Shown: piece by piece, positions 5,043 through 43,591 of the stretch
How the letters are laid out: every line of letters begins with the position of its first letter
How positions within the stretch are numbered: the first letter of the stretch is position 1
Origin: Bacteroidia bacterium
Lineage (GTDB): Bacteria > Bacteroidota > Bacteroidia > NS11-12g > UBA955
Length of the DNA stretch: 58,635 bases
NCBI GenBank assembly: GCA_044373665.1
Contig: JBIPNH010000005.1
Location: forward strand, 1 to 58,635
Direction of reading: 5' to 3'
The notes under the pieces: model-generated
What the model was told of the DNA's origin: nothing
Database searches by the model: none
The model's input: the letters and a program-made list of their open reading frames with translations, nothing else
Translations under genes and position numbers: made by a program

Positions 5043-8000
5043 ATGTCAGTAAACACTCAACTTACCTATGATGAAAAATTTGAACAAATTTATCAATCAC
5101 TAAATTCAAACCAAAAAGACGCAGTCAACCATATTGATGGACCTACCATGGTTATTGCAGGGCCAGGAACGGGGAAAACTCAAATATTAGCAGCTAGAAT
5201 TGCCAATATATTAAAGGAAACCGATACAGCGCCCTACCAAATATTGTGTGTTACCTTCACTGATGCTGGGGTTGTAGCCATGCGGAGTAGATTGGAGAGT
5301 TTTATTGGTCCTATCGCCTACCAAGTTAATATCCATACTTTTCACTCCCTTTGTAATCAAATTATATTAGATAATACCGATTATTTTGGATACAAGTCTG
5401 TGCAAGCTGCTTCCGATTTGGAGATTTTACAAGTCATAAGCGAAGTTATTGATGAGTTGCCTTTTCAACATCCTATCAAAAAATTAAAAGGAGAAGTATA
5501 CCAAGAAGCACAAGATTTAAAAAAGCTTTTTTCTATCATGAAAAAAGAAGATTTTTCGGTCGATTTTATTAAAACTAGAGCTGATAAGCATTTGCAAGAC
5601 ATGCTCGACAATGGTGATTTTTATTATAAAAGAGCCTACAAAGACAAAAAAGCAGGTGACTTAAAAGAAGACAGTTATAATCAAGAACATCAAAAACACG
5701 AACGCCTAAAAGCAGCAGCTGAATTATACGCCGTATTTGTTCAAAAAATGAAGGATAAAGGTTGGTATGATTTTGATGATATGATACTTTGGGTGATTAA
5801 TGCTTTCAAAAAAGACCCTTCTTTTTTGCTTAATTATCAAGAACAGTTTTTGTACTACCTAGTAGATGAATTTCAAGACACAAATGGTTCACAGTTAGAA
5901 CTAATTAATTTATTGGCAAAGTATGACGACAATCCCAACCTGTTTGTTGTAGGCGACGAAGATCAATCTATTTATAGATTTCAGGGTGCCAATATTAACA
6001 ATATTATTGATTTTGAAGAGACTTATAAAACCCATATTCATACCACAGTTTTAACAGATAATTACCGTTCCTCACAGTCGATATTAGATGCTTCCAAAGC
6101 GTTGATTTCTTACAATACCGAACGCATTCCTGGAGTCGATAAGGTTCTGTTGGCAAAAGGTTCGGTAAATGGTGCTTTCCCCAAATTACCTCCTAGTTTG
6201 GAAGTGTATCAAAACAACCTTCAAGAAGTCGTTGGAATTGGTCATCAAATAAAAATCCTTCATCAACAAGGTGTTAAATACAAAGACATAGCAGTATTAT
6301 ACAGGAATCACAAACATGTAGAAGATTTAATCGCCTATTTTAATATTCATGAAATTCCGTACAACTCATTTAAGAAAGTAAATGTATTGGAGGAGCTTTT
6401 AATTAAAAAATTACTCACTATCCTCCAGTATATCGAGGCTGAAAATAAAAAACCATTCTCAGGAGAATCCATGTTATTCCAAATTCTGAATTATGATTTT
6501 TACAATATTCATCCCCTAGATATTGCTAAAATTTCGGTTGAAGTATCCAAGTCAAGGAAAAAATGGCGTGAATATTTGGAAGAAAAAACACAAATGAGTG
6601 CATCCTTATTTGATGCTGTTAGTTCAAAAGAATCTAAAGCCGAATTGAACAGATTGGTGTCCGATTTGGAATATTGGATTAAACAATCAAATAATTTGAC
6701 TCTTCCTCAATTGGTTGAAAAAATTATTGCCAAAGGAGGTGTTTTGAGTTATGTAATGCATGCCCCCGATAAAAGATGGCAATTGCAAGTATTGAGAACC
6801 TTTTTTGATTTTGTTAAAGCTCAAGCAGCCAAAAAACCTCAAATATCTATCAATGATTTAGTGCAATTGGTAGCGGAATACAACCGTTTTGATATTTCAT
6901 TGGATGCCATACAAATGACCTCGGCGCCTGACAGTGTTAATTTAATGACTTTGCATAAGAGCAAAGGGCTCGAATTTGAATATGTCTTTATGATTAAATG
7001 TACGGAGCCCGATTGGTCTAAAAAAGGAGGAAATAAACACGATTTTGGTATTTCAAAATATGTAAGTTCACGTGTTGAAACGGTTGCCGATCAAAGGGAA
7101 ATTGAAGAGTTAAGGCGTTTGTTTTTTGTGGGAATGACAAGAGCAAAAAAACAACTCACTATTTCATATTATAACAAAACAGTTAGTGACAAAGACGTAA
7201 GTAAATTGCAGTTTGTGTCTGAATTAATTGAAAATGCTGAATTGCAAGAAAAACATGTTCATGTCGATGAAACAGATTTGTTCGATTTTGAAAGTGCTTT
7301 TTACCGCTTTGAAGAAACACCTGATTTTGACCTTATCGACCATGCTTTCATTGATGAAATACTTAAAAATTACATGCTTTCGGTAACGCATCTCAATTCG
7401 TACTTAAAATGTCCAATTACTTTTTATTTTAATAATGTTTTGAGAGTGCCAAGTGCCAAAAACGAAAATCTTGCTTTTGGAACTGCGGTTCACGCTGCTT
7501 TTGAGAATTTATTGAAAGTTAAAGCTACTCAAACAGAATTGCCAGAAATATCACTATTTACAAGTAGTTTTGCTAAATCAATGCATCAAAATAGAGACAG
7601 CTTTACAGATAAATCATTCGAAAGGATGATGGTTCACGGTCAAGATGTTTTGACGGGATATTATAATAACTATCAAGCAGAATTGTCTGCACTCAATACG
7701 TTTGATGTTGAGAAAAATTTAAATTCAGTTAATTTTAATGGCATACCACTGAAAGGAAAATTAGATTGTGTAATAACCGATGGTGCTAAAGCCTATGTTA
7801 TTGATTTCAAAACGGGTAGGCATGACAATGGTAAAAAGAAATGCAACCCACCTAAAGAGGGTGCAACCGAAGAGAGTAAGTTCGAAGACCAATTCGGTGG
7901 TGATTATTGGAGACAAATGATGTTTTATGCCATTTTGATAAAACACGATGAACGTTACAACAAACAAATGATAGGTGGTGAAATGGATTTTGTGGAACCA

Positions 8001-11773: not shown

Positions 11774-14323
11774 ATGGCATTTAAGAACAAAAATACATTT
11801 AGAAATGCTGCTGACGATTTTCAGCCAGAGGAATCTGCTAAGAAAAGCCGTGTCAAAGGAAACTATTTCTCATGGCTGAAAGACGAAAAAACCGCTCGAG
11901 TAATTGGCGCTTTTTTTATACTTTTTTCGTTGTTTCTGTTCATGTCTTTTATTTCTCATATAGTCAATTTATGGGGATTCGAAACCGACCAAGATTTATT
12001 GCTCTCCAACAGTTGGCAGTGGTATAAAACTAATAATCCCAAAGGTGCTGTCAATATGATGGGTTATTTGGGCGCATGGTTTAGCCACTTGTTTATTCAC
12101 AAATGGTTTGGTGTTGCTTCTTTTGTGTGGCTATTAACTTTTTTTACTTTGGGTACCAAAATGCTATTCAATTGGCAATTGTATCCTTTGTTAAAAACAT
12201 TAAGATATTCCTTTTTCATCGTTATTTGGGTGTCAATGTTAATGGGTTTCCTGTTTTACAAACATAGCTTGTTTATGGGTGGTGGATTTGGTTATTATGG
12301 CGTGTCATGGTTGAGCTCATTGTTCGGTAAATTAGGCGTTGTTTTGTTTTTAATGTTGTATGCTTTTGTGTTTGCAACTATTGTATATAATCTAGATTTT
12401 AAATCAATTAAAAGAAGTAGTTTAATCGATGATAAGGAATCTAATACACCGGGTGTGCCTTTTTCTGAACATGAATTGGAAGCAGAGTCTATCAAAAATG
12501 AATTCTTAAATCAACCTGACCCATTCGCAGTTACTGCCAATGAAATTGAAGATGAGGACGAAGGAATAGAACTGATAACCATTAGTCAAACGCCTGAAAT
12601 AAAAGAGGAAATAGAACTCGAGGAAATATTGAATCCTCAAGTTGTTAGTTTTGATGTAAACAATACCCCTAAACCAATTTCGAAAACTCAACCGAATTTT
12701 GAACTTAAAATAGAAGCACCGCAAGAGGAAGAATTAGTGATTGTGCCACCTGTAAGCGAACCTGTGCTAGACCCTTCAAATTCTGTCGCTCCTATTACAG
12801 CTTCATTTGGAGATGGTTCTCAGTACGACCCACGTTTAGATTTGGCAGGTTACCAAATGCCAACCATAGATTTACTACAAGACTATGAAGTCGCCAAAAC
12901 AGAAATAGACAGAACGGAACTTGAGCACAGTAAAAATTTAATCATAGAAACACTCAAAAACTATAATATTGGTATTTCTGAGATTAAGGCCAATATCGGT
13001 CCAACAGTTACATTGTATGAAATAATTCCTGCACCGGGCGTAAAAATTTCGAGAATCAAAAACTTAGAAGATGACATTGCCTTGAGTTTGGCAGCTTTAG
13101 GTATTCGTATTATTGCCCCTATTCCAGGAAAAGGAACCATAGGGATAGAAGTGCCTAATAAAAAACCAGAAATGGTTCCTATGAAATCCATGGTAGCAAG
13201 TAAGAAATTTCAAGAGTGTGCTTATGAGTTGCCGGTGATATTAGGAAAAACAATCTCCAATGAAATATACATTGCCGATTTAGCCAAAATGCCGCATTTA
13301 TTGTGTGCAGGAGCCACAGGGCAAGGTAAATCCGTTGGGTTAAATACCATTATTTGTTCGCTGTTGTACAAAAAACATCCTTCAGAGTTGAAGTTTGTGT
13401 TAATCGACCCAAAGAAAGTAGAATTAACTTTATACAATAAAATTGAAAGACATTTCTTAGCCAAATTGCCTGGAGATGGCGATGCCATTATCACAGATAC
13501 CAAATTGGTGACCAATACATTGAATTCGCTTTGTATGGAAATGGATGAGCGTTATGATTTGTTAAAATCAGCAGGTAAACGTAATATTATAGAATACAAT
13601 ACGAAGTTCAAAGAAAGGAAATTACTTCCTACCGAAGGGCACCGTTTTTTGCCATACATTGTGGTGGTAATAGACGAAGTTGCCGATTTAATGATGACCG
13701 CAGGCAGAGAGGTAGAAACGCCTATTGCGCGTTTGGCTCAGTTGGCTAGGGCAGTGGGAATACACGTTATCTTAGCAACACAAAGACCGTCTGTAAATAT
13801 TATTACGGGTACTATCAAAGCCAATTTCCCTGCAAGATTAGCCTTTAGGGTAACGTCCAAAATAGATTCAAGAACAATTTTAGACAGCAATGGTGCCGAT
13901 CAGTTGATAGGTAAGGGAGACATGTTGTTTAGTACGGGCAATGATTTATTGCGTTTGCAATGTCCATTTGTTGACACGCCTGAGGTAGAACGCATTACAG
14001 AATATATTGGCAATCAAAGAGGGTATAGCAGTGCCATGATATTGCCAGAATTTAGGGGCGATGAAGATGGCGGTGCAAGAGATGATTTTGACCCGAACGA
14101 CCGTGATGCTTTGTTTGAAGAGGCAGCCAGATTAATAGTGCAAACGCAACAAGGCAGTACTTCGTTAATCCAAAGAAAATTGAAGTTAGGTTATAACAGA
14201 GCAGGTCGATTGATAGATCAATTGGAACAAGCCGGCATAGTAGGTCCTTTTGAAGGCGCTAAAGCCAGAAAGGTACTGATACCAGATGAAGCGAGTTTGA
14301 ACCAGTTTTTGGATAATATGTAG
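11774..14323 (+). CDS. ftsK: DNA translocase FtsK/SpoIIIE
   Basis: 849 aa. It has an N-terminal TM region, an acidic/Pro-rich linker and a motor domain with Walker A AGATGQGKS and VVVIDEVADLMM. The C-terminal gamma winged helix reads STSLIQRKLKLGYNRAGRLIDQLEQAGIVGP. Confidence 0.92.
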   Translation: MAFKNKNTFRNAADDFQPEESAKKSRVKGNYFSWLKDEKTARVIGAFFILFSLFLFMSFISHIVNLWGFETDQDLLLSNSWQWYKTNNPKGAVNMMGYLGAWFSHLFIHKWFGVASFVWLLTFFTLGTKMLFNWQLYPLLKTLRYSFFIVIWVSMLMGFLFYKHSLFMGGGFGYYGVSWLSSLFGKLGVVLFLMLYAFVFATIVYNLDFKSIKRSSLIDDKESNTPGVPFSEHELEAESIKNEFLNQPDPFAVTANEIEDEDEGIELITISQTPEIKEEIELEEILNPQVVSFDVNNTPKPISKTQPNFELKIEAPQEEELVIVPPVSEPVLDPSNSVAPITASFGDGSQYDPRLDLAGYQMPTIDLLQDYEVAKTEIDRTELEHSKNLIIETLKNYNIGISEIKANIGPTVTLYEIIPAPGVKISRIKNLEDDIALSLAALGIRIIAPIPGKGTIGIEVPNKKPEMVPMKSMVASKKFQECAYELPVILGKTISNEIYIADLAKMPHLLCAGATGQGKSVGLNTIICSLLYKKHPSELKFVLIDPKKVELTLYNKIERHFLAKLPGDGDAIITDTKLVTNTLNSLCMEMDERYDLLKSAGKRNIIEYNTKFKERKLLPTEGHRFLPYIVVVIDEVADLMMTAGREVETPIARLAQLARAVGIHVILATQRPSVNIITGTIKANFPARLAFRVTSKIDSRTILDSNGADQLIGKGDMLFSTGNDLLRLQCPFVDTPEVERITEYIGNQRGYSSAMILPEFRGDEDGGARDDFDPNDRDALFEEAARLIVQTQQGSTSLIQRKLKLGYNRAGRLIDQLEQAGIVGPFEGAKARKVLIPDEASLNQFLDNM

Positions 14324-14580
14324 ATTTCATCTTATCCAAACAAGATTATTGAATAAGATAATATTAAAAAACATTGCTATCCATGGAGTGTTATGAAATG
14401 GATAGAACAGTGTTTCCTGTTAAAATAAGAGAAAGATAAGTAATTGATGATTTGAAATGATTAAAGCAAACTTTTTCAAGACCTCGAGATATAAATGATT
14501 TTAAAAATTTGAATTAAAGTTTTTAATTCCCATTACACATTTTATTAGCTCTTTTTTTAAATGGTAGCATCAAGTTAACT

Positions 14581-14668
14581 CTCCGAAAGTTCAGCTTTTT
14601 GGAGAGTTAATTCTCCAAAAAGATAGATATTTGGAGAGTGTAATCTCCAAAAGTTGCATTATTTGGAG
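14581..14668. repeat. Array of three 24-nt palindromic units at 32-bp phasing (candidate operators)
   Basis: The units are CTCCGAAAGTTCAGCTTTTTGGAG (14581-14604), CTCCAAAAAGATAGATATTTGGAG (14613-14636) and CTCCAAAAGTTGCATTATTTGGAG (14645-14668). The arms CTCCAAA/TTTGGAG are inverted. The last unit lies over the expected -33 region of the downstream promoter box. Confidence 0.7.
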
Positions 14669-14676
14669 ATTTGACA

Positions 14677-14684
14677 TATATTTG
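14677..14684 (+). promoter_or_regulatory. Candidate -7 promoter box (TATATTTG) for the AAA+ ATPase gene
   Basis: Exact TAnnTTTG match 15 nt upstream of the ATG at 14700. Confidence 0.45.
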
Positions 14685-14699
14685 CATCAATATATTAAC

Positions 14700-15830
14700 A
14701 TGATGGAACTAAGTAGAGTATTATCAAAAACACTTGAAAAGCAGTTATTCAAAGGTAAAACATTGATTGTGATTGGCTCAAGGCAAGTTGGTAAAACAAC
14801 GTTAATCAATCATGTCATTCAACATTATGAATCATTCTTATTTTTAGATGGTGACGATTCTCAGGTTAGACAAATTTTATCAAATAATAACACTGCAGAG
14901 ATTAAACAAATCATTGGGAATCATAAAATTGTTTTTATAGATGAAGCGCAAAGAATTAATCATATTGGTTTAACAGCAAAAATTATTCACGATCAGTTTA
15001 AGGATGTGCAACTTATTCTCAGTGGTTCATCAGCACTAGAATTGAATAATGCAGTGAATGAAACACTTACTGGAAGAAAACTAGAATACCATTTATATCC
15101 TATTTCTTGGGGGGAGTTGGTGGCACAATATGGTTATTTAAACAGTCTTCAAAATTTGAATAATCGTTTAATTTATGGCATGTATCCAGACATTATTATA
15201 AACCCAGGTCAAGAAAAAGAATTTTTAAAAAATTTAACAGAAAGTTATTTATACAAGGATATTCTAGCACTTGGAAACATAAAAAAACCAGATGTTTTAG
15301 AACGTTTACTTCAAGCTTTGGCATATCAAATAGGTTCGGAAGTTTCATATAATGAATTATCAAGTTTACTTGGCGTTGCAAAAGAAACCATCATCAGTTA
15401 TATCCAATTGCTAGAAAAAGCATATATAGTTTTTAGAGTAGATAGCTTTAGTAAAAACTTACGAAATGAGATAAAAAACAGCAAAAAGATTTACTTTTAC
15501 GACAATGGGATTAGAAATGCAATAATTAACGCATTTAATCCAATAGATATTAGACCCGACAAAGGTGTTTTATGGGAAAATTTTTTGATTTCCGAACGAA
15601 TAAAACATTTAGAGTATCATAACATTTATTGTAAATATTATTTTTGGAGAACCAAAGGACAGCAAGAAATTGATTGGATTGAGATTAAAGATTTAAAGAT
15701 AAATGCTTATGAATTTAAATGGAAGGGAGCTGAAAAAGTTAAGTTTCCAAATGCGTTCGTTGAAGCCTATCAACCTGGCATAGAAGCTGTTGATAAAACA
15801 AATTTCAATGTGTTTTTAGGAGGTGTATAA
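14700..15830 (+). CDS. AAA+ ATPase with wHTH and DUF4143-type C-terminal (restriction-endonuclease-like) domain
   Basis: Walker A GSRQVGKTT and Walker B IVFIDEAQRI are present. An HTH-like segment reads SYNELSSLLGVAKETIISYIQLLEKAYIV, followed by KIYFYDNGIRNAI and then EIDWIE...YEFKW. I moved the start to the first ATG (MMELSRV). The track's TTG start at 14631 lies inside the palindrome array. Confidence 0.85.
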   Translation: MMELSRVLSKTLEKQLFKGKTLIVIGSRQVGKTTLINHVIQHYESFLFLDGDDSQVRQILSNNNTAEIKQIIGNHKIVFIDEAQRINHIGLTAKIIHDQFKDVQLILSGSSALELNNAVNETLTGRKLEYHLYPISWGELVAQYGYLNSLQNLNNRLIYGMYPDIIINPGQEKEFLKNLTESYLYKDILALGNIKKPDVLERLLQALAYQIGSEVSYNELSSLLGVAKETIISYIQLLEKAYIVFRVDSFSKNLRNEIKNSKKIYFYDNGIRNAIINAFNPIDIRPDKGVLWENFLISERIKHLEYHNIYCKYYFWRTKGQQEIDWIEIKDLKINAYEFKWKGAEKVKFPNAFVEAYQPGIEAVDKTNFNVFLGGV

Positions 15831-15906
15831 TGGTGAATAAGTGATGTGATACATTCATTGATTATCAAATGAGATTCTTAAAGTGGATTTCTCTAAAGTT
15901 TCAATT

Positions 15907-15963
15907 TTCCAAAAAAGATAGATATTTGGAGCGTTTATTATCCGGAAGTTCAGCTATTTGGAG
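15907..15963. repeat. Two further palindromic units downstream of the ATPase gene
   Basis: TTCCAAAAAAGATAGATATTTGGAG (15907-15931) has the same spacer as upstream unit 2. ATCCGGAAGTTCAGCTATTTGGAG (15940-15963) has the same spacer as upstream unit 1. Orientation is the same as upstream but the order is reversed. Confidence 0.7.
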
Positions 15964-16216
15964 TTTTTTTATATTAGACTATTTTAAAAGAAATAGGTCA
16001 AACAAAGTTTATTGAATTGTTGGGAAAGTTTTGAAGTAGAAATTGATTTTTTCACAATACTTAAGTGTTAATAATTAGTATTTTTTTTAAGCGTTTAGGT
16101 GTTTTTTTGAATATTTTTTGGATTTTATTTTTGGGAAATTATAAAGACTCAATAAATTTAATTATTTTCGATTCGTTATTTAAAATATTTATTAAAACAA
16201 AAATAAAAACTCGCCT

Positions 16217-17392
16217 ATGAAATATAAAATCATTCTTTTTTTTATCGTTTTAACTCAAATAAGTTGTTACAAAGAGTATGAATTAATAAATCAAGATTAT
16301 TATTTTTTAAGGGGTTTGTTCGTCAATGGACAAGCCCCTAATTTTCAATTGTATTATCAAAACACACAAGGAGGTTATATGGTTAATTATACGGACTATC
16401 AACTTGAGGTCATTAATGAAAATAATACTGTTTTTAAAATGAATTCAATTGGTAATTTTTCTTTTTTGTCTATAAAGCCTAATTCTAAATACAAAGTGAG
16501 ATGGAAATTAAACAGCGAGAAAGATTGGCACGAGCTTACCAAAGAGTCTATTAACTATGAAACAACGTTAAATGACAAATCATTTGTTAAAGCCGAAAAT
16601 GAATTGTTTGTTAATAGAGATAGAAATGATTCTTTTGTTTATTTTTTATACAATCCATATGATAGAAAGACTTTTGAAGAACAGTTTTTAGAATCTTTTT
16701 TGATTGAATATCCCGATGCATTTCTTGAATTAAATCAAACAGACAATGCATTGATTTTATGGCCACCTTCCAATAAATATTATTTAGATAGATTTAAAAA
16801 TTCAACAAATTTTTGTTTCAAACCATTTACTTGGAAAATGTCAAATGGGGCAGTTTACCGAGATTTTCAACTTTATAGTATGTCTAAATCGGATTTTCAA
16901 TTTTATTATAATTTACATAAAAATGATGTAGGGAAAAATACGCCTTTGGCGGTTGGTGAAGGCATATTGTGGGATTACAGTAAAGACAATGTAAAAGCCA
17001 AAATAGTCAATATTAACAATTATAATAATATTAAAATCTTTGATTATGTAAACAGAGATGAAAGGTTATATGTTGATTTTTTGATTAATAACAAACCTAT
17101 AGATACACTTAATTATAAGATAATAAGAGTTTTTTCGAGATTTGAAAATTCAGATTATACATTTCCAGTTATGGGTTGGCAGGATCAAACGTTGTATGCT
17201 GGTTTCAAAGAATATTTTGCCCATCATTACAATGAATGTTTTAGTATGCCATGCGGTTTTATTAAAGAGGTTTATCCATTAAGGTTTTTTGTGTATTTAC
17301 ATGATTTAAAGTTAAATAGAAAAATAACCATTGGTATGCCCACCTATGAATTTACTAATGGAGATAGTGTAGTTTTAGATATTAAGTTATGA
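16217..17392 (+). CDS. Lipoprotein of unknown function (possibly a DUF4249-like partner of the adjacent receptor)
   Basis: 391 aa with a lipoprotein-type signal (MKYKIILFFIVLTQISC). It is very N/Y/F/K-rich and low in GC. It overlaps the next gene by 4 nt (ATGA). Confidence 0.6.
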   Translation: MKYKIILFFIVLTQISCYKEYELINQDYYFLRGLFVNGQAPNFQLYYQNTQGGYMVNYTDYQLEVINENNTVFKMNSIGNFSFLSIKPNSKYKVRWKLNSEKDWHELTKESINYETTLNDKSFVKAENELFVNRDRNDSFVYFLYNPYDRKTFEEQFLESFLIEYPDAFLELNQTDNALILWPPSNKYYLDRFKNSTNFCFKPFTWKMSNGAVYRDFQLYSMSKSDFQFYYNLHKNDVGKNTPLAVGEGILWDYSKDNVKAKIVNINNYNNIKIFDYVNRDERLYVDFLINNKPIDTLNYKIIRVFSRFENSDYTFPVMGWQDQTLYAGFKEYFAHHYNECFSMPCGFIKEVYPLRFFVYLHDLKLNRKITIGMPTYEFTNGDSVVLDIKL

Positions 17393-19548
17393 AAAACTTA
17401 TTGCTGTTTTGTTTTTTGTTTTTAAGCTGGGCGTTAAAAGGTCAAGTATCCCATCAAATAAATTTTAAGTTTTTAGACCAAGCAAACAATCAACCGATTT
17501 CTAATTTACTAGTCAAATATCAAAGTACTACAGCGTATAGTAATTCAGATGGTTTTGTATCTGTGTTCATACAGTCTGATACCGGTACATTCCGTTTTTA
17601 TGAATCAGATGTATATTTACAAGAGTACAAATTAAAAGCATATAATGACACTTTTATAGTATTGAAAATAGAACGCATTTATGAAATAAGTAAGTTTAAG
17701 CTAAGGGTAAATCACCAGCCCATAACTGCTAAAAATAACAGAATTTCTATAGGTCAAAATACACTTCAGTCTATTTCATTGCCACTAAGTACCAACGACC
17801 CAATTCATTTATTAAAAACATTGCCCGGGGTTAATACCAGTCAAGAAATGAATGCTAATTTAAATATCAGAGGTGGAAGTGCTTACAATACAGTCTTTTA
17901 TTTAGATAATATTCCTGTGCCTAATTTAACTCATAGTTTTGGTTTATACAGTTTTTTTGATTTGAACACTATCAGACAAATTGATTATTTCAATAATAAT
18001 GTAAGTAGTGAGTATGGCTCTAGGGGTTCAAGTTATATAAAATTTTATCTTAAAGACCCAATTTCTAATAAATCAACATCGGAATTAAATATTAATCCTT
18101 TTTTTGTTAGTGGTAATGTTAATTTGAAGTTAAAAAAAGAAAAATTGGGTGTTTTTGTTAATTACAGAAAATCTATTTTCAATACTGAATACAATGTGCT
18201 TTTTCCTCTTTTTTCAGAGTTTTCTGATTTATTAATCAAAACTAAATATAATTTTAACAGAAGGTCGTCCTTGAGTTTAATATACACCGATAATCAAGAC
18301 AGAGTTACTGATTTTAATGCAACCGGAATCAATTCTAGAGATAGTTTGCAATGGCAGTTTAAAGCCTTTTCATCACAATTTGATTTAATTTCTAAAAGTG
18401 GCATAAAACATGAAGCAGTTTTTTTTATTAAGAATCAAGTTTTATCAAGGCAATCTTTGAATAATCAGTTTAATTACAAAAATGAATTTAATGAAATGAA
18501 CTTTAAATATTCGTTAAAGAAAAGTTTTAGCCAGAATTTTAGATCATCATTTGGGTTAGAACATCAAATTCATCAAAATAATAATTCATTAAGTTTTAAC
18601 AATAAAATCATTGATAATTTAAATGTCTTATCTCTTAATACAGATAACGCATACCAATTTAAAAACTTTATTTTTAATGCTAATTTAAGGTTGAGTAATT
18701 TTATTGATTTAAATAAAACTTACCTTGAAAAAAGATTAAGTATAAATTATAAGCTTAAAAAGTCGAGTTTTATTGCAGAGTATAACACTTTTGTTAATGC
18801 CACTCACAGTTTGGTTAATAATGTTTTTCCTGTTCCTGATGATTTTAAGTTTTTGGCGAATAAAGATTTTTTACCTCAGGTAACAAATGAGTGGTTGATT
18901 GGCTACAATGTTCAATTGAAAAAATCAAATCTACAATTAAATGCATATCATAGAAATTTTCTAAATAGCTATGATTACAGAAGATTGAATATTGATAATT
19001 ATGCCTCATTTAGCAATGTTTTTAAGATGAATCATGTCAGCTATGGGGTTGAGGCTTTGTCCAATATTAATATTAATGAAAAGCATAGTTTTGTTTTGTC
19101 TTATACTTTATCAAAATCTACAATGCAAAATGATTCAGTCAATTTGGGTTTATTGTATCCAACTAGTTACGATAGGCCACATAATTTTAATTTATTGTAT
19201 AGTTTTAAGTATAAAAGATTTACGTTTACCAGTACTTTTACTTGGCAAAGTGGTAGGGTTGCAACGGTTCCTTTATTTGTAGCTTACGCTAATGCTACCC
19301 CAATTTATTCTCTAAGAAATGAGTATCGTTTAAAACCTTTTCATAAAATGGATATTGGTTTTCAATACAGTTTCAGAAATAAAGTTAAGGTTAAACAGTT
19401 TTTAAATGTTAATTTGTACAATGTGTATTTTCGTCAAAATACTTATGCTGTTGTTTGGGAAAGTAACAACAATACTAGATCTGCTGAACTCAAATATCTA
19501 ACAGCCTTCCCATTTCTCCCTTCCTTCTCTTACAGCATTAAATTTTAG
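17389..19548 (+). CDS. TonB-dependent-receptor-like outer membrane protein (CarboxypepD_reg-like N-domain, plug, beta-barrel)
   Basis: 719 aa with a signal peptide. The plug-like segment reads LKTLPGVNTSQEMNANLNIRGGSAYNTVFYLDNIPV. A long alternating beta-strand region ends in an aromatic C-terminus, FSYSIKF. Confidence 0.8.
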   Translation: MKNLLLFCFLFLSWALKGQVSHQINFKFLDQANNQPISNLLVKYQSTTAYSNSDGFVSVFIQSDTGTFRFYESDVYLQEYKLKAYNDTFIVLKIERIYEISKFKLRVNHQPITAKNNRISIGQNTLQSISLPLSTNDPIHLLKTLPGVNTSQEMNANLNIRGGSAYNTVFYLDNIPVPNLTHSFGLYSFFDLNTIRQIDYFNNNVSSEYGSRGSSYIKFYLKDPISNKSTSELNINPFFVSGNVNLKLKKEKLGVFVNYRKSIFNTEYNVLFPLFSEFSDLLIKTKYNFNRRSSLSLIYTDNQDRVTDFNATGINSRDSLQWQFKAFSSQFDLISKSGIKHEAVFFIKNQVLSRQSLNNQFNYKNEFNEMNFKYSLKKSFSQNFRSSFGLEHQIHQNNNSLSFNNKIIDNLNVLSLNTDNAYQFKNFIFNANLRLSNFIDLNKTYLEKRLSINYKLKKSSFIAEYNTFVNATHSLVNNVFPVPDDFKFLANKDFLPQVTNEWLIGYNVQLKKSNLQLNAYHRNFLNSYDYRRLNIDNYASFSNVFKMNHVSYGVEALSNININEKHSFVLSYTLSKSTMQNDSVNLGLLYPTSYDRPHNFNLLYSFKYKRFTFTSTFTWQSGRVATVPLFVAYANATPIYSLRNEYRLKPFHKMDIGFQYSFRNKVKVKQFLNVNLYNVYFRQNTYAVVWESNNNTRSAELKYLTAFPFLPSFSYSIKF

Positions 19549-42337: not shown

Positions 42338-43591
42338 TTATCTTAGTTTTAAAGTAATAATGGATAAAATAGCAAGGATAATTCCGATGATTAAAAAACG
42401 AGTCACGATTTTAGCTTCATGAAATCCCTTTTTTTGGTAATGGTGATGAATAGGTGACATCAAGAAAATTCTTCTCCCTTCACCGTACTTTTTCTTAGTG
42501 TATTTAAAATAGCCCACTTGAAGAACTACGCTTAAATTCTCGATTAAGAAAATACCACACAGTATTGGGATTAATAATTCTTTTCTAATGATAATAGCTA
42601 ATGCAGCAATTACTCCTCCAAGCATTAAGCTACCGGTGTCGCCCATAAAAACTTGAGCCGGATAACTGTTGTACCACAAAAATCCGATACACGCTCCAAC
42701 GTAGGCGCCTGCAAATACAAAAAGCTCACCCAAATAAGGGATGTACATTATGTTTAAATAGTCCGCAAACAAAATATTGCCAGACAAAAAGGCGAATAAT
42801 CCCAATGTAGTTCCAATAATAGCAGAGGTGCCTGCAGCTAAACCATCAATACCATCCGTAATATTTGCACCATTGGAAACGGCAGTAATTATAAAAATAA
42901 CAATTAAGGTATAGATAATCCATCCATACTTGCTATCCATTCCCAAAAAATTGCTTATTTTCTGGTAGTCAAATTCGGAATGTTTAAAGAATGGAATGGT
43001 GGTTTTAAGTGTTTTTTCGTTTTTTATAAAGTAGCTAGTGCCGTTTATTACAGTTTTGTTTAAACCAATTGTATCTATCTTGTATTGAATGGCTTCTTGC
43101 TTAGTGTAGTGATTGGTTATAACCACAGCTTTATTGAAGTAAAGGGTTAAGCCCACCACTAATCCAACTATAATTTGACCTAGTATTTTAAATCGACCCG
43201 ACAAACCTTCCTTGTCTTTTTTAAAGACTTTGATATAGTCGTCAATAAAGCCAATTAAGCCAGTTAATACAGTAACAATAATCATTAAAATTACATAAAC
43301 ATTGTTGAGTCTAGCTAGCAATAATGTAGGAATTAGAATGGCTGCTAACATTATAAGTCCACCCATTGTAGGGGTTCCTTTTTTTGCATTTTCACCTTCA
43401 AGACCTAAGTTTCTGATGGTTTCTGAAACTTGCATTTTTTGGAGCAATTGAATTAGTCTTTTGCCAAAAACAGCTGAAATGGTCAAAGATAAAATAACAG
43501 CTAAACCCATTCTAAAGGTCTGGTATTTCCAAACGCCTAATCCTATAAAATCGTAGTGGGTGTCGAGGTATGTAAAAAAATGATACAGCAT
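42338..43591 (-). CDS. mraY: Phospho-N-acetylmuramoyl-pentapeptide transferase
   Basis: 417 aa polytopic protein with [27 protein letters not shown] and PIHHH. Confidence 0.95.

What the first reader, a model, noticed from the sequence alone, without database searches (positions are those of the whole stretch)
14581..15963. Phased 24-nt palindrome arrays bracket an AAA+/wHTH/nuclease-like gene
Three 24-nt units sit upstream at an exact 32-bp period: CTCCGAAAGTTCAGCTTTTTGGAG (14581), CTCCAAAAAGATAGATATTTGGAG (14613) and CTCCAAAAGTTGCATTATTTGGAG (14645). Two more sit 77-133 nt downstream of the stop: TTCCAAAAAAGATAGATATTTGGAG (15907) and ATCCGGAAGTTCAGCTATTTGGAG (15940). All share the inverted arms CTCCAAA/TTTGGAG around a 10-nt core. 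The downstream units keep the cores of upstream units 2 and 1, in the same orientation but in mirrored order. This suggests duplicated DNA rather than convergent binding sites. Upstream unit 3 lies over the expected -33 region of the TATATTTG box at 14677. The downstream pair lies about 250 nt ahead of the lipoprotein/receptor operon. I see three possible readings. The units could be operators for a dimeric HTH protein, possibly the ATPase's own wHTH, which would co-regulate all three genes. They could be the ends of a mobile cassette. They could be ORB-like loading sites for the ATPase. I know of no described element with this layout.
Basis: partly seen in the sequence, partly recalled or inferred. 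Interest (0 to 1): 0.7.

Follow-up and report, generated by a model that had tools for sequence, protein, structure and literature searches.

The report
Operator array of an ATPase-nuclease gene
Three evenly spaced palindromes in front of an ATPase-nuclease gene are most likely that protein's own DNA docking sites, because across a very common but uncharacterised family of candidate anti-phage genes the DNA sites and the protein's DNA-reading helix change together.

Summary
Three 26-nt palindromes (TCTCCRAAA-N9-TTTGGAGA) sit at an exact 32-bp period at 14580-14669. Two decayed copies sit at 15907-15963. Nothing similar occurs elsewhere in the window.

The gene between them (14700-15830) encodes an AAA+ / winged-helix / PD-(D/E)XK nuclease protein of the AAA_14+DUF4143 family. 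PADLOC lists this family as the untested defence candidate PDC-S01.

The array travels with the gene. Homologues at 41-99% identity, in unrelated gene neighbourhoods, carry one to four such palindromes at a 31-33 bp period over their own promoter. The outer pentamer of each half-site differs between lineages (TCTCC, TCACC, AGCC, TCCCC, TGACC). It covaries with residues 229 and 227, at the start of the predicted recognition helix; these are the top two of 376 positions. Two blind predictions from protein sequence to DNA site were correct.

My best reading is that the array is the ATPase's own operator and assembly site and acts mainly in autorepression. It is not a REP-like element, an RNA or a transposon end.

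The downstream pair is a duplicated piece of the array. A second lineage shows the same duplication, and three independent rearrangements break at the array edge. This recombination link is unexplained. I found no description of this element in the papers searched.

The parts
14580..14605 (.). Array unit 1: TCTCCGAAAGTTCAGCTTTTTGGAGA, two inverted half-sites
   Evidence: homologous units in L001, L094, L096, L098
14612..14637 (.). Array unit 2: TCTCCAAAAAGATAGATATTTGGAGA
14644..14669 (.). Array unit 3: TCTCCAAAAGTTGCATTATTTGGAGA. It spans the inferred -33 region (TTG at 14654-14656) of the ATPase promoter.
   Evidence: the same placement 7-8 nt upstream of a TAnnTTTG box in L002, L003, L089 and L104
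14677..14684 (+). Inferred Bacteroidota -7 promoter box TATATTTG (TAnnTTTG), 16 nt before the ATG
   Evidence: Sequence. A TAnnTTTG box lies within 70 nt of the start in 66 of 86 homologous loci. The promoter consensus is from established knowledge and was not tested here.
14700..15830 (+). ATPase-nuclease gene: AAA_14 + DUF4143, PADLOC PDC-S01. Domains are AAA+ (residues 1-135), lid (137-192), wHTH (197-266) and PD-(D/E)XK (288-364).
15378..15419 (+). Codons for A227, K228, E229 and the rest of the predicted recognition helix (228-240). Residues 227 and 229 covary with the half-site pentamer.
15907..15931 (.). Downstream unit A, a decayed copy of unit 2 (left arm TTCC, one extra A)
   Evidence: (D1); conserved in L001, L094, L098 and L099
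15940..15963 (.). Downstream unit B, a decayed copy nearest to unit 1 (left arm ATCC; intact TCTCC in L094)
14674..16122 (.). Variable segment: promoter, ATPase gene, downstream pair and about 160 nt. In relatives L096/L097 it is replaced by a reverse XRE-type HTH gene, while the three-unit array is kept.

Best explanation
The three palindromes are the cognate DNA sites of the protein encoded immediately downstream. That protein is an AAA+ ATPase with a winged-helix domain and a PD-(D/E)XK nuclease domain (AAA_14/DUF4143, PDC-S01).

Each half-site has a lineage-specific outer pentamer (here TCTCC) followed by an A-tract. The pentamer is read by the N-terminus of the wHTH recognition helix (A227-K228-E229-T230 here).

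The six pentamer centres lie at 14582, 14603, 14614, 14635, 14646 and 14667. The intervals are 21/11/21/11/21 bp, so all six are on one face of the helix. Several protomers, probably three dimers or one higher oligomer, could therefore assemble side by side on about 90 bp.

The last unit covers the -33 region of the gene's own promoter. In other lineages the -7 box lies inside the last unit. Occupancy should therefore shut off transcription, giving cooperative autorepression of a potentially toxic ATPase-nuclease. Each paralogue has a private specificity, so many copies can coexist in one genome without cross-talk.

Shown here: the elements exist, they are linked to the gene across contexts, their phasing is conserved, the DNA and protein covary, and they sit over the promoter consensus. 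Inferred: physical binding, the sign of regulation and the stoichiometry.

The downstream pair is a duplicated two-unit piece of the array and is partly decayed. It is either a recombination scar or an auxiliary site, for example a looping partner.
For: (1) Linkage. Homologues at 99, 76, 73, 67 and 60% identity sit in unrelated neighbourhoods, and all carry 2-3 units at a 32-bp period directly upstream.

(2) Family-wide phasing. Over 92 loci, self-similarity of the 134 nt upstream of the start peaks at lag 32 (0.404 against about 0.29 background). Lag 32 or 33 is the best lag in 50 of the 92. 47 of 93 loci beat the 95th percentile of shuffles in an explicit array model. Strict palindromic units occur at 0.82 per locus against 0.03 in shuffles.

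(3) Specificity. A strict two-unit TCTCC pattern occurs in only 3 stretches among 185,579 species genomes. Each lies next to a DUF4143 gene or its remnant. Among 103 fetched loci, the exact unit occurs only in the E229 lineage.

(4) Covariation. Residue 229 has permutation-corrected mutual information of 1.20 bits (z 13.7) with half-site class. Residue 227 has 0.73 (z 13.4). The next best of 376 positions has 0.58. Both flank the invariant K228 at the start of helix 228-240, which is helix 3 of a canonical wHTH in a model with pLDDT 89. The pairings are:
- A/S/T227 + E229 with TCTCC
- N227 + E229, or S/N227 + D229, with AGCC
- D227 + N229 with TCACY (27 of 29 loci)
- D227 + K229 with TCCCY or TCCCG
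- N227 + I/V/T/A229 with TGACC.
The K229/TCCC and D229/AGCC pairings appear in separate branches of a tree built without the helix.

(5) Blind test. P0006 (S-K-E) was predicted to have TCTCC and does. P0037 (N-K-E) was predicted to have AGCC and does. Both have a 32-bp period.

(6) Position. The array ends 7-8 nt before the TAnnTTTG box or contains it in most strong-array loci.

(7) Fold. The nearest solved structures are archaeal AAA+-wHTH ATPases, Apaf-1 and DNA-bound Orc1/Cdc6.

(8) Distant paralogues (29% identity) and plasmid homologues in Treponema and Moraxella have their own, different palindromes in the same place.
Against: There is no binding or expression experiment, so everything rests on comparative inference.

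Covariation can be inflated by shared ancestry. The tree check is only a neighbour-joining tree, and several classes are single clades. The TCTCC class is represented by about five independent lineages.

The promoter is inferred from the Bacteroidota consensus, not mapped.

Three phased palindromes are more than simple autorepression needs. An intact nuclease domain and ATPase are not explained by a repressor role.

Relatives L096/L097 retain the array without the gene, although it is partly decayed there.

About half of the loci at 51-60% identity show only one recognisable unit, or none under my criteria.

The downstream pair has no demonstrated function.
Confidence: 0.65

Rival explanations
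1. The arrays are recombination or attachment sites of a gene cassette. The ATPase-nuclease, or a host system, cuts or recombines DNA at the array edge. This moves, duplicates, swaps or deletes the adjacent gene, and the flanking direct repeats are the product of integration at an array.
For: Two independent lineages have a two-unit direct repeat of the array after the gene, with homology confined to the array. These are the window lineage, and L033 at 58/61 identity. Three independent rearrangements break at the promoter-proximal edge of the array. In L096/L097 the gene is swapped for an XRE gene 3-4 nt after unit 3. In L008/L010 the array is fused about 8 nt from codon 296. The gene sits in different contexts in every lineage and on 522 plasmid records. 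The PD-(D/E)XK catalytic residues are invariant.
Against: 32 of 35 strong-array loci have no downstream copy within the DNA held. There is no integrase or transposase, no target-site duplication and no inverted terminal arrangement. Rearrangements at protein-bound repeats can be passive. This reading is compatible with the operator reading rather than an alternative to it.
Confidence: 0.12
2. The array is an ORB- or iteron-like assembly platform whose main role is not transcription. It would serve as a 'home' site where the AAA+ oligomer is loaded and held, for example as an inactive nuclease reservoir released on infection, or as an origin-like site of a small replicon.
For: The fold resembles Orc1/Cdc6 and STAND proteins. 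There are multiple helically phased sites. The ATPase and nuclease motifs are conserved. The family is a defence candidate and is frequent on plasmids.
Against: There is no AT-rich unwinding element, helicase or other replication gene. The loci are chromosomal and single-copy in unrelated contexts. The array consistently overlaps the gene's own promoter, which a pure loading site need not do.
Confidence: 0.15
3. The sites are bound by some other host transcription factor, or are generic REP-like or structural palindromes, and the link to the ATPase is incidental.
For: The orphan array in L096/L097 persists without the adjacent gene.
Against: The only thing shared between loci is the ATPase gene. 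The half-site class tracks that protein's recognition helix. The motif is absent from the rest of the window and almost absent from 185,579 genomes.
Confidence: 0.04
4. The palindromes act as RNA hairpins, as a 5' leader structure, an attenuator or a terminator of ftsK.
For: The strand folds far better than shuffles (-43.5 kcal/mol, z -7.2). The arms show compensatory changes between lineages.
Against: The units lie upstream of the inferred promoter. Both registers are palindromic, so each arm would have two competing partners. The arm sequence, not only complementarity, is conserved within a class. There is no T-run terminator on the + strand. No Rfam family comes near its threshold. An RNA role does not explain the covariation with protein residues.
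Confidence: 0.03

Closest known systems
PDC-S01 (PADLOC phage-defence candidate; COG1373; Pfam AAA_14 + DUF4143)
   Same: The window protein matches the PDC-S01 model PDLC04789 end to end (E 1e-159). It has the ATPase plus PD-(D/E)XK architecture described for this candidate (PMC12988326; DUF4143 is classed as PD-(D/E)XK in PMC3424549).
   Different: The literature found treats it only as an untested single-gene candidate counted in surveys. No DNA target, regulation or cis-element is described. The array and its recognition code are the new part.
Iterons and the Rep initiators of theta-replicating plasmids
   Same: Several helically phased repeats lie next to the gene of the winged-helix protein that binds them. 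Inverted copies over the promoter give autorepression. Specificity diverges between related elements.
   Different: Iterons are direct repeats next to an origin on a replicon. Here the half-sites alternate in orientation, the loci are chromosomal, no origin features are seen, and the protein is an AAA+-nuclease rather than a Rep.
Archaeal Orc1/Cdc6 with ORB elements beside its own gene
   Same: The AAA+ plus wHTH fold is among the top structural matches (2qby, 2v1u). Multiple sites lie adjacent to the gene encoding the binder.
   Different: There is no duplex-unwinding element or MCM. The repeat sequence and geometry differ. There is an extra C-terminal nuclease domain. The host is bacterial (Bacteroidota).
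Controller (C) proteins and C-boxes of restriction-modification systems; BrxR/CapW-type regulators of defence systems
   Same: Palindromic operators lie over the promoter of a mobile defence-type gene. They autoregulate and fall into distinct specificity groups.
   Different: Those regulators are small dedicated HTH proteins. Here the DNA-reading domain is part of the effector itself, and there are up to four phased units.
REP/BIME-type dispersed palindromes
   Same: They are short imperfect palindromes in intergenic DNA, sometimes in clusters.
   Different: This motif is not dispersed. It occurs at one locus per 58 kb here and at only 3 loci in 185,579 genomes under the strict pattern, always with the gene.

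Membership tests
PDC-S01 / COG1373 (AAA_14 + DUF4143) protein family | Full-length match to the family profile HMMs | tested here: met
   Pfam AAA_14 1.7e-28 and DUF4143 4.8e-39. PADLOC PDLC04789 1.2e-159, covering residues 2-373 of 376.
PDC-S01 / COG1373 (AAA_14 + DUF4143) protein family | Intact Walker A/B and PD-(D/E)XK catalytic residues | tested here: met
   G26, G31, K32, T34, D81, E82, D325 and K340 are invariant, and E338 is nearly invariant, in 35 sequences. The fold model has pLDDT 89.
PDC-S01 / COG1373 (AAA_14 + DUF4143) protein family | Anti-phage activity | not testable with these tools
   The literature describes it as an untested candidate (PMC12988326).
Autoregulatory operator of the adjacent DNA-binding protein | Sites co-occur with the gene irrespective of genomic context | tested here: met
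Autoregulatory operator of the adjacent DNA-binding protein | Site sequence covaries with DNA-reading residues of the protein | tested here: met
   Residues 229 and 227 are the top two of 376 positions. Two of two blind predictions were correct.
Autoregulatory operator of the adjacent DNA-binding protein | Sites overlap the core promoter | tested here: inconclusive
   They overlap a consensus TAnnTTTG/-33 arrangement in most loci, but no transcription start has been mapped.
Autoregulatory operator of the adjacent DNA-binding protein | Physical binding and repression | not testable with these tools
   This needs EMSA, footprinting or reporter assays.
REP-like dispersed palindromes | Many copies at unrelated intergenic sites | tested here: not met
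Plasmid iterons | Direct repeats adjacent to an origin on a replicon | tested here: not met
   Half-sites alternate in orientation. The contexts are chromosomal housekeeping genes such as ftsK-lolA, gapdh and gltB. No origin features were seen.
Archaeal ORB/Orc1 origin | Initiator-type AAA+-wHTH fold | tested here: met
   Foldseek hits to 2qby and 2v1u (E 2e-6 to 2e-5, TM 0.28-0.35), so the similarity is at fold level only.
Archaeal ORB/Orc1 origin | Inverted ORBs flanking an AT-rich unwinding element, with a replicative helicase partner | tested here: not met
   The array is contiguous, with 6-nt spacers and no DUE. No helicase gene is adjacent.
Transposon or IS terminal inverted repeats | Repeats at both ends in inverted orientation, with a target-site duplication | tested here: not met
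   Only 3 of 35 strong-array loci have any downstream copy, and those are direct repeats.
CRISPR array | Repeats separated by unique spacers of similar length, with cas genes | tested here: not met
   26-nt units are separated by 6 nt. There are at most four units and no cas genes.
Known RNA family or intrinsic terminator | Rfam match at gathering score; G+C stem followed by a T-run | tested here: not met
   The best Rfam hit scores 24.5 bits against a threshold of 70. The only terminator-like hit is on the minus strand inside the array.

The most novel reading that the evidence does not exclude
The array is more than an operator. It would be the self-address of a single-gene selfish or defence module. 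The AAA+-nuclease would assemble on its own phased sites and cut or recombine DNA at the array edge. This would explain four observations: array edges are recurrent breakpoints, arrays can flank the gene as direct repeats, the gene hops between contexts and plasmids, and every paralogue keeps a private DNA specificity. That would amount to a new kind of site-specific, ATP-driven gene cassette.
Probability: 0.12. Interest if true: 0.9.

Novelty: new variant of a known kind. Interest (0 to 1): 0.72.

Why it matters
A 2026 survey (PMC12988326) counts PDC-S01/COG1373 proteins as the fourth most common defence candidate across prokaryotes. They often occur in many copies per genome. Nothing is known about what they bind or how they are controlled.

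This finding supplies three things:
- A defined cognate DNA site.
- A simple residue-to-base code: positions 227 and 229 against the outer pentamer.
- A conserved geometry: a 32-bp period with all pentamers on one helical face.

The family therefore becomes directly testable by EMSA, specificity swaps, reporter fusions and cleavage mapping. The finding also raises the question of whether these genes are really immune effectors, self-regulated toxins or selfish cassettes. For annotation, it offers a way to recognise orphan arrays and gene remnants as traces of lost copies.

Tried and rejected
- REP-like dispersed element: rejected. There are no other copies in the window, 3 loci in 185,579 genomes under the strict pattern, and none in unrelated fetched loci.
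- RNA element or terminator: rejected. There is no Rfam match, no + strand T-run terminator, and the position is upstream of the inferred promoter. The strong fold z-score is an automatic consequence of repeated palindromes.
- Transposon ends: rejected. Most loci have sites on one side only, and the downstream copies are direct.
- Sigma-70 promoter scan: uninformative for a Bacteroidota-type genome, with 9 hits against 12.7 expected.
- PDB sequence search: no relative found. Only fold comparison helped.
- NCBIfam: no model for the ATPase.
- First pattern searches used wrong spacer lengths and first translations used the wrong frame. Both were repeated correctly.
- Exact look-up of the window protein failed because the recorded gene starts at the second ATG.
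- The literature search for 'AAA_14' returned only noise.
- The test of co-regulation of the downstream 391-aa/719-aa operon found no support. That operon has only three homologue clusters anywhere, and it exists without the ATPase and the downstream pair in L096.
Full report
**1. The observation**

Extended by one base on each side, the units are 26-nt palindromes of the form TCTCCRAAA-N9-TTTGGAGA. They lie at 14580-14605, 14612-14637 and 14644-14669, an exact 32-bp period.

Two decayed copies lie at 15907-15931 and 15940-15963. They are 77-133 nt after the stop codon of the intervening gene and 254 nt before the next ATG.

With at most one mismatch, the 24-nt pattern matches only these three units. 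Shuffles give 0.02 expected, and 0 of 100 reach the observed count. At three mismatches, the only other notable hits in 58.6 kb are the downstream pair and one coding-region match at 43421.

Downstream unit A is identical to unit 2 over 20 nt. Unit B matches unit 1 at 21 of 23 positions.

Half-sites alternate in orientation, so the junctions between units (GGAGA-N6-TCTCC) are also inverted repeats.

**2. The gene and its setting**

The ORF at 14700-15830 carries AAA_14 and DUF4143. It matches the PADLOC candidate-defence model PDC-S01 end to end, with E 1e-159.

An AlphaFold model built on 35 homologues (pLDDT 89, pTM 0.89) shows these domains:

| Region (residues) | Domain |
|---|---|
| 1-135 | AAA+ core |
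| 137-192 | helical lid |
| 197-266 | canonical winged helix: helices 197-209, 217-224 and 228-240, then a beta-hairpin wing |
| 288-364 | PD-(D/E)XK-like domain |

The Walker A and B residues and the D325...E338-x-K340 motif are invariant or nearly invariant.

The closest solved folds are the archaeal AAA+-wHTH ATPases 2fna and 2qen, Apaf-1, and DNA-bound Orc1/Cdc6. No PDB sequence relative exists.

The gene lies between ftsK (11774-14323) and a low-GC pair of genes: a 391-aa protein of unknown function and a 719-aa Plug-domain protein. These are followed by lolA and trhO.

**3. The array travels with the gene**

I retrieved homologues at 99% (L001), 76% (L002), 73% (L003/L004), 67% (L005) and 60% identity (L006, L007). 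They come from quite different neighbourhoods, including gldN/gapdh, capsule genes, trp genes, aconitase and gltB. Every one has two or three palindromes at a 32-bp period directly upstream of the start codon.

I then fetched 80 metagenomic loci at 51-60% identity and three viral-contig loci.
- Over 92 loci, self-similarity of the 134 nt before the start peaks sharply at lag 32 (0.404 against about 0.29). Lag 32 or 33 is the best lag in 50 loci.
- An explicit model of alternating half-sites with a 31-33 bp period beats the 95th percentile of shuffles in 47 of 93 loci, and beats every shuffle in 35.
- Strict palindromic units are 26-fold enriched, at 0.82 against 0.03 per locus.

The element is not dispersed. 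A two-unit TCTCC pattern scanned over 185,579 species genomes hit three stretches only. One is L002's contig. The other two (L008, L010) have the array fused to the last 78 codons of a deleted ATPase gene.

**4. The protein reads the array**

The A-tract part of the half-site (CCAAAAG) is broadly shared. The outer pentamer differs between lineages: TCTCC, TCACC/TCACT, (T)AGCC, TCCCC/TCCCG, TGACC and others.

I classed 54 non-identical proteins by half-site and computed mutual information for every alignment column, corrected by permutation.

| Position | Corrected MI (bits) | z |
|---|---|---|
| 229 | 1.20 | 13.7 |
| 227 | 0.73 | 13.4 |
| next best of 376 | 0.58 | - |

The recognition-helix segment has the highest mean of any region. 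Residues 227 and 229 flank the invariant K228 and T230 at the N-terminus of helix 3 of the wHTH. That is where such domains usually contact bases (established knowledge of wHTH proteins; helix assignment).

The pairings are:

| Residues | Half-site pentamer |
|---|---|
| A/S/T227 + E229 | TCTCC |
| N227 + E229, or S/N227 + D229 | AGCC |
| D227 + N229 | TCACY (27 of 29 loci) |
| D227 + K229 | TCCCY or TCCCG |
| N227 + I/V/T/A229 (with Q232) | TGACC |

Two of these pairings fit common side-chain/base preferences: Asn with the central A:T pair of TCACC, and Lys with the extra G of GGGGA. That point rests on my own knowledge, not on a test.

In a neighbour-joining tree built without the helix, the K229/TCCC and D229/AGCC pairings occur in separate branches.

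I also made two predictions from protein sequence before fetching the DNA:
- P0006 (S-K-E) should have TCTCC.
- P0037 (N-K-E) should have AGCC.

Both were correct, and both loci have a 32-bp period.

Among all 103 fetched loci, the exact TCTCC unit occurs only in E229-lineage loci, their remnants and their orphan arrays.

**5. Geometry and position**

In the window, the centres of the six specificity pentamers are at 14582, 14603, 14614, 14635, 14646 and 14667. The intervals are 21, 11, 21, 11 and 21 bp, which are two turns and one turn of B-DNA. All six pentamers therefore face the same side of the helix.

A Bacteroidota-type -7 box (TAnnTTTG) lies within 70 nt of the start in 66 of 86 loci. 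In most strong-array loci the array either ends 7-8 nt before this box, as in the window, L002, L003, L089 and L104, or contains it, as in the TCACC loci where TACTTTTG is part of the last half-site. In the window, unit 3 covers the inferred -33 region of TATATTTG (14677-14684).

The simplest functional reading is cooperative autorepression by promoter occlusion. This step is inferred and not shown.

**6. Generality**

Paralogues in the same contigs have their own, different arrays.
- L006 carries a K229 copy with AATCCAAAA sites next to an E229 copy with GGAGA sites.
- A 29%-identical subfamily carries two or three CTTTnGATTATCATGATAAAAnAAAG units at a 31-bp period in L008, L010 and L104.

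The family is on 522 plasmid records.
- A Treponema plasmid homologue (49%) has two TCGAAAATTATTATAATATTT units 32 bp apart.
- A Moraxella bovis plasmid homologue (27%) has a perfect 44-bp palindrome 8 nt before its ATG.

**7. The downstream pair and rearrangements**

The pair is conserved in close relatives (L001, L094, L098, L099). It is homologous to about 65 nt of the upstream array.

An independent TCACC-type locus, L033, has the same layout. Two units lie 147-179 nt after its stop codon. They are 58/61 identical to its own upstream units, and the homology is limited to the array. L017 has one degenerate unit after the stop codon.

Relatives L096/L097 (84-92% DNA identity) keep the flank and the three-unit array. 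In them, everything from 3-4 nt after unit 3 to window position 16122 is replaced by a reverse XRE-type gene.

Together with the L008/L010 deletion, these are three independent rearrangements with a breakpoint at the promoter-proximal edge of the array.

This does not fit a transposon, because 32 of 35 strong-array loci have no downstream copy in the DNA held. It does leave open a recombination role, or nuclease action next to the bound array.

The 391-aa/719-aa operon exists in L096 without the ATPase or the pair, so co-regulation of all three genes is not supported.

**8. Alternatives tested**

- RNA. No Rfam family approaches its threshold.
- Terminator. The only terminator-like hit is on the minus strand inside the array.
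- Folding energy. The strong fold (z -7.2) follows trivially from repeated palindromes.
- The sigma-70 scan is uninformative for this organism.

**9. Comparison with what is known**

In the papers searched, DUF4143 appears only in a PD-(D/E)XK catalogue (PMC3424549). PDC-S01 appears only as an untested candidate counted in surveys, 'the fourth most common defence across all prokaryotes' (PMC12988326). None mentions a DNA site or regulation.

The element works like several known systems:
- Iterons with their Rep proteins.
- ORB elements beside orc1/cdc6.
- The C-boxes of restriction-modification controller proteins.

It fails the defining features of each. The half-sites alternate in orientation, there is no origin or replicon, and the reader domain is part of an ATPase-nuclease effector. 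I therefore class it as a new variant of a known kind: a self-recognised, phased operator array.

**10. Verdict**

My confidence that the array is the protein's cognate site is about 0.8. My confidence that its main role is autorepression is about 0.6.

The purpose of the ATPase and nuclease activities is unresolved. So is the meaning of the flanking duplicate and of the breakpoints at the array edge. These are the most interesting open points.

Noticed in passing
window 14324-14486 versus L001 1-520, L098 5454-6268 and L099: Close relatives (about 98% identical) carry a PIN + DUF2281 toxin-antitoxin pair between ftsK and the ATPase array. The window lacks it. The ftsK-lolA interval is a variable hotspot: L096 also has a ParE pair before lolA, and L096, L098 and L099 have a KilA-N gene after trhO that the window lacks.
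   Followed up: partly
L096 785-886 and L097 1-75: An orphan three-unit TCTCC array with no adjacent ATPase gene. A reverse XRE/HTH_3 gene (L096 904-1251) occupies the place of the ATPase. Units 2 and 3 are partly decayed.
   Followed up: yes
L008 2373-2460 (minus strand) and L010 856-950: The array is fused about 8 nt from codon 296 of the ATPase gene. This is a deletion derivative that has lost the promoter and codons 1-295.
   Followed up: yes
L033 2228-2288: An independent lineage (TCACC type) has a two-unit direct repeat of its own array after the gene. It is 58/61 identical to the upstream copy, and the homology is limited to the array.
   Followed up: yes
window 16217-19548: The 391-aa (no Pfam hit) and 719-aa (Plug domain only) genes have about 27% GC, against about 34% in the flanks. 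They have only three homologue clusters among 5.8 billion proteins, so they are lineage-restricted. A divergent patch at 17106-17349 separates the window from L094.
   Followed up: partly
L077 about 1175-1300: An array of four or more units at a 33-bp period whose two half-sites differ (TCACT/TCGCT on one side, TCTCC on the other). Its protein has A229. It may be an asymmetric or transitional specificity.
   Followed up: no
window 14613-14636 and 15907-15931; L094 6397-6422 and about 7690-7715; L001: The core of unit 2 and the core of downstream unit A change together between genomes: GATAGATA in both in the window, and GACAGATA in both in L094. L001 is mixed. This suggests gene conversion between the two copies.
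   Followed up: no
window 43421-43444: TTCTGAAACTTGCATTTTTTGGAG is a 2-mismatch match to the unit, inside the coding region 42338-43591 (minus strand). It is probably a chance match.
   Followed up: no
L091-L093 (IMG/VR) and plasmid hits H1-H15: Family members occur on contigs labelled viral (41-48% identity) and on 522 plasmid records (173 Acinetobacter, 60 Rhizobium, 39 Moraxella). One sits next to sul1 on a Trichlorobacter plasmid. Cultured hosts are therefore available for experiments.
   Followed up: partly
L005 4592-5770, L006 4621-5745, L003 2718-4088, L104 4196-5338: DUF4143 ATPase genes often sit in pairs (tandem, divergent or convergent). Each has a different palindrome type upstream.
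   Followed up: partly
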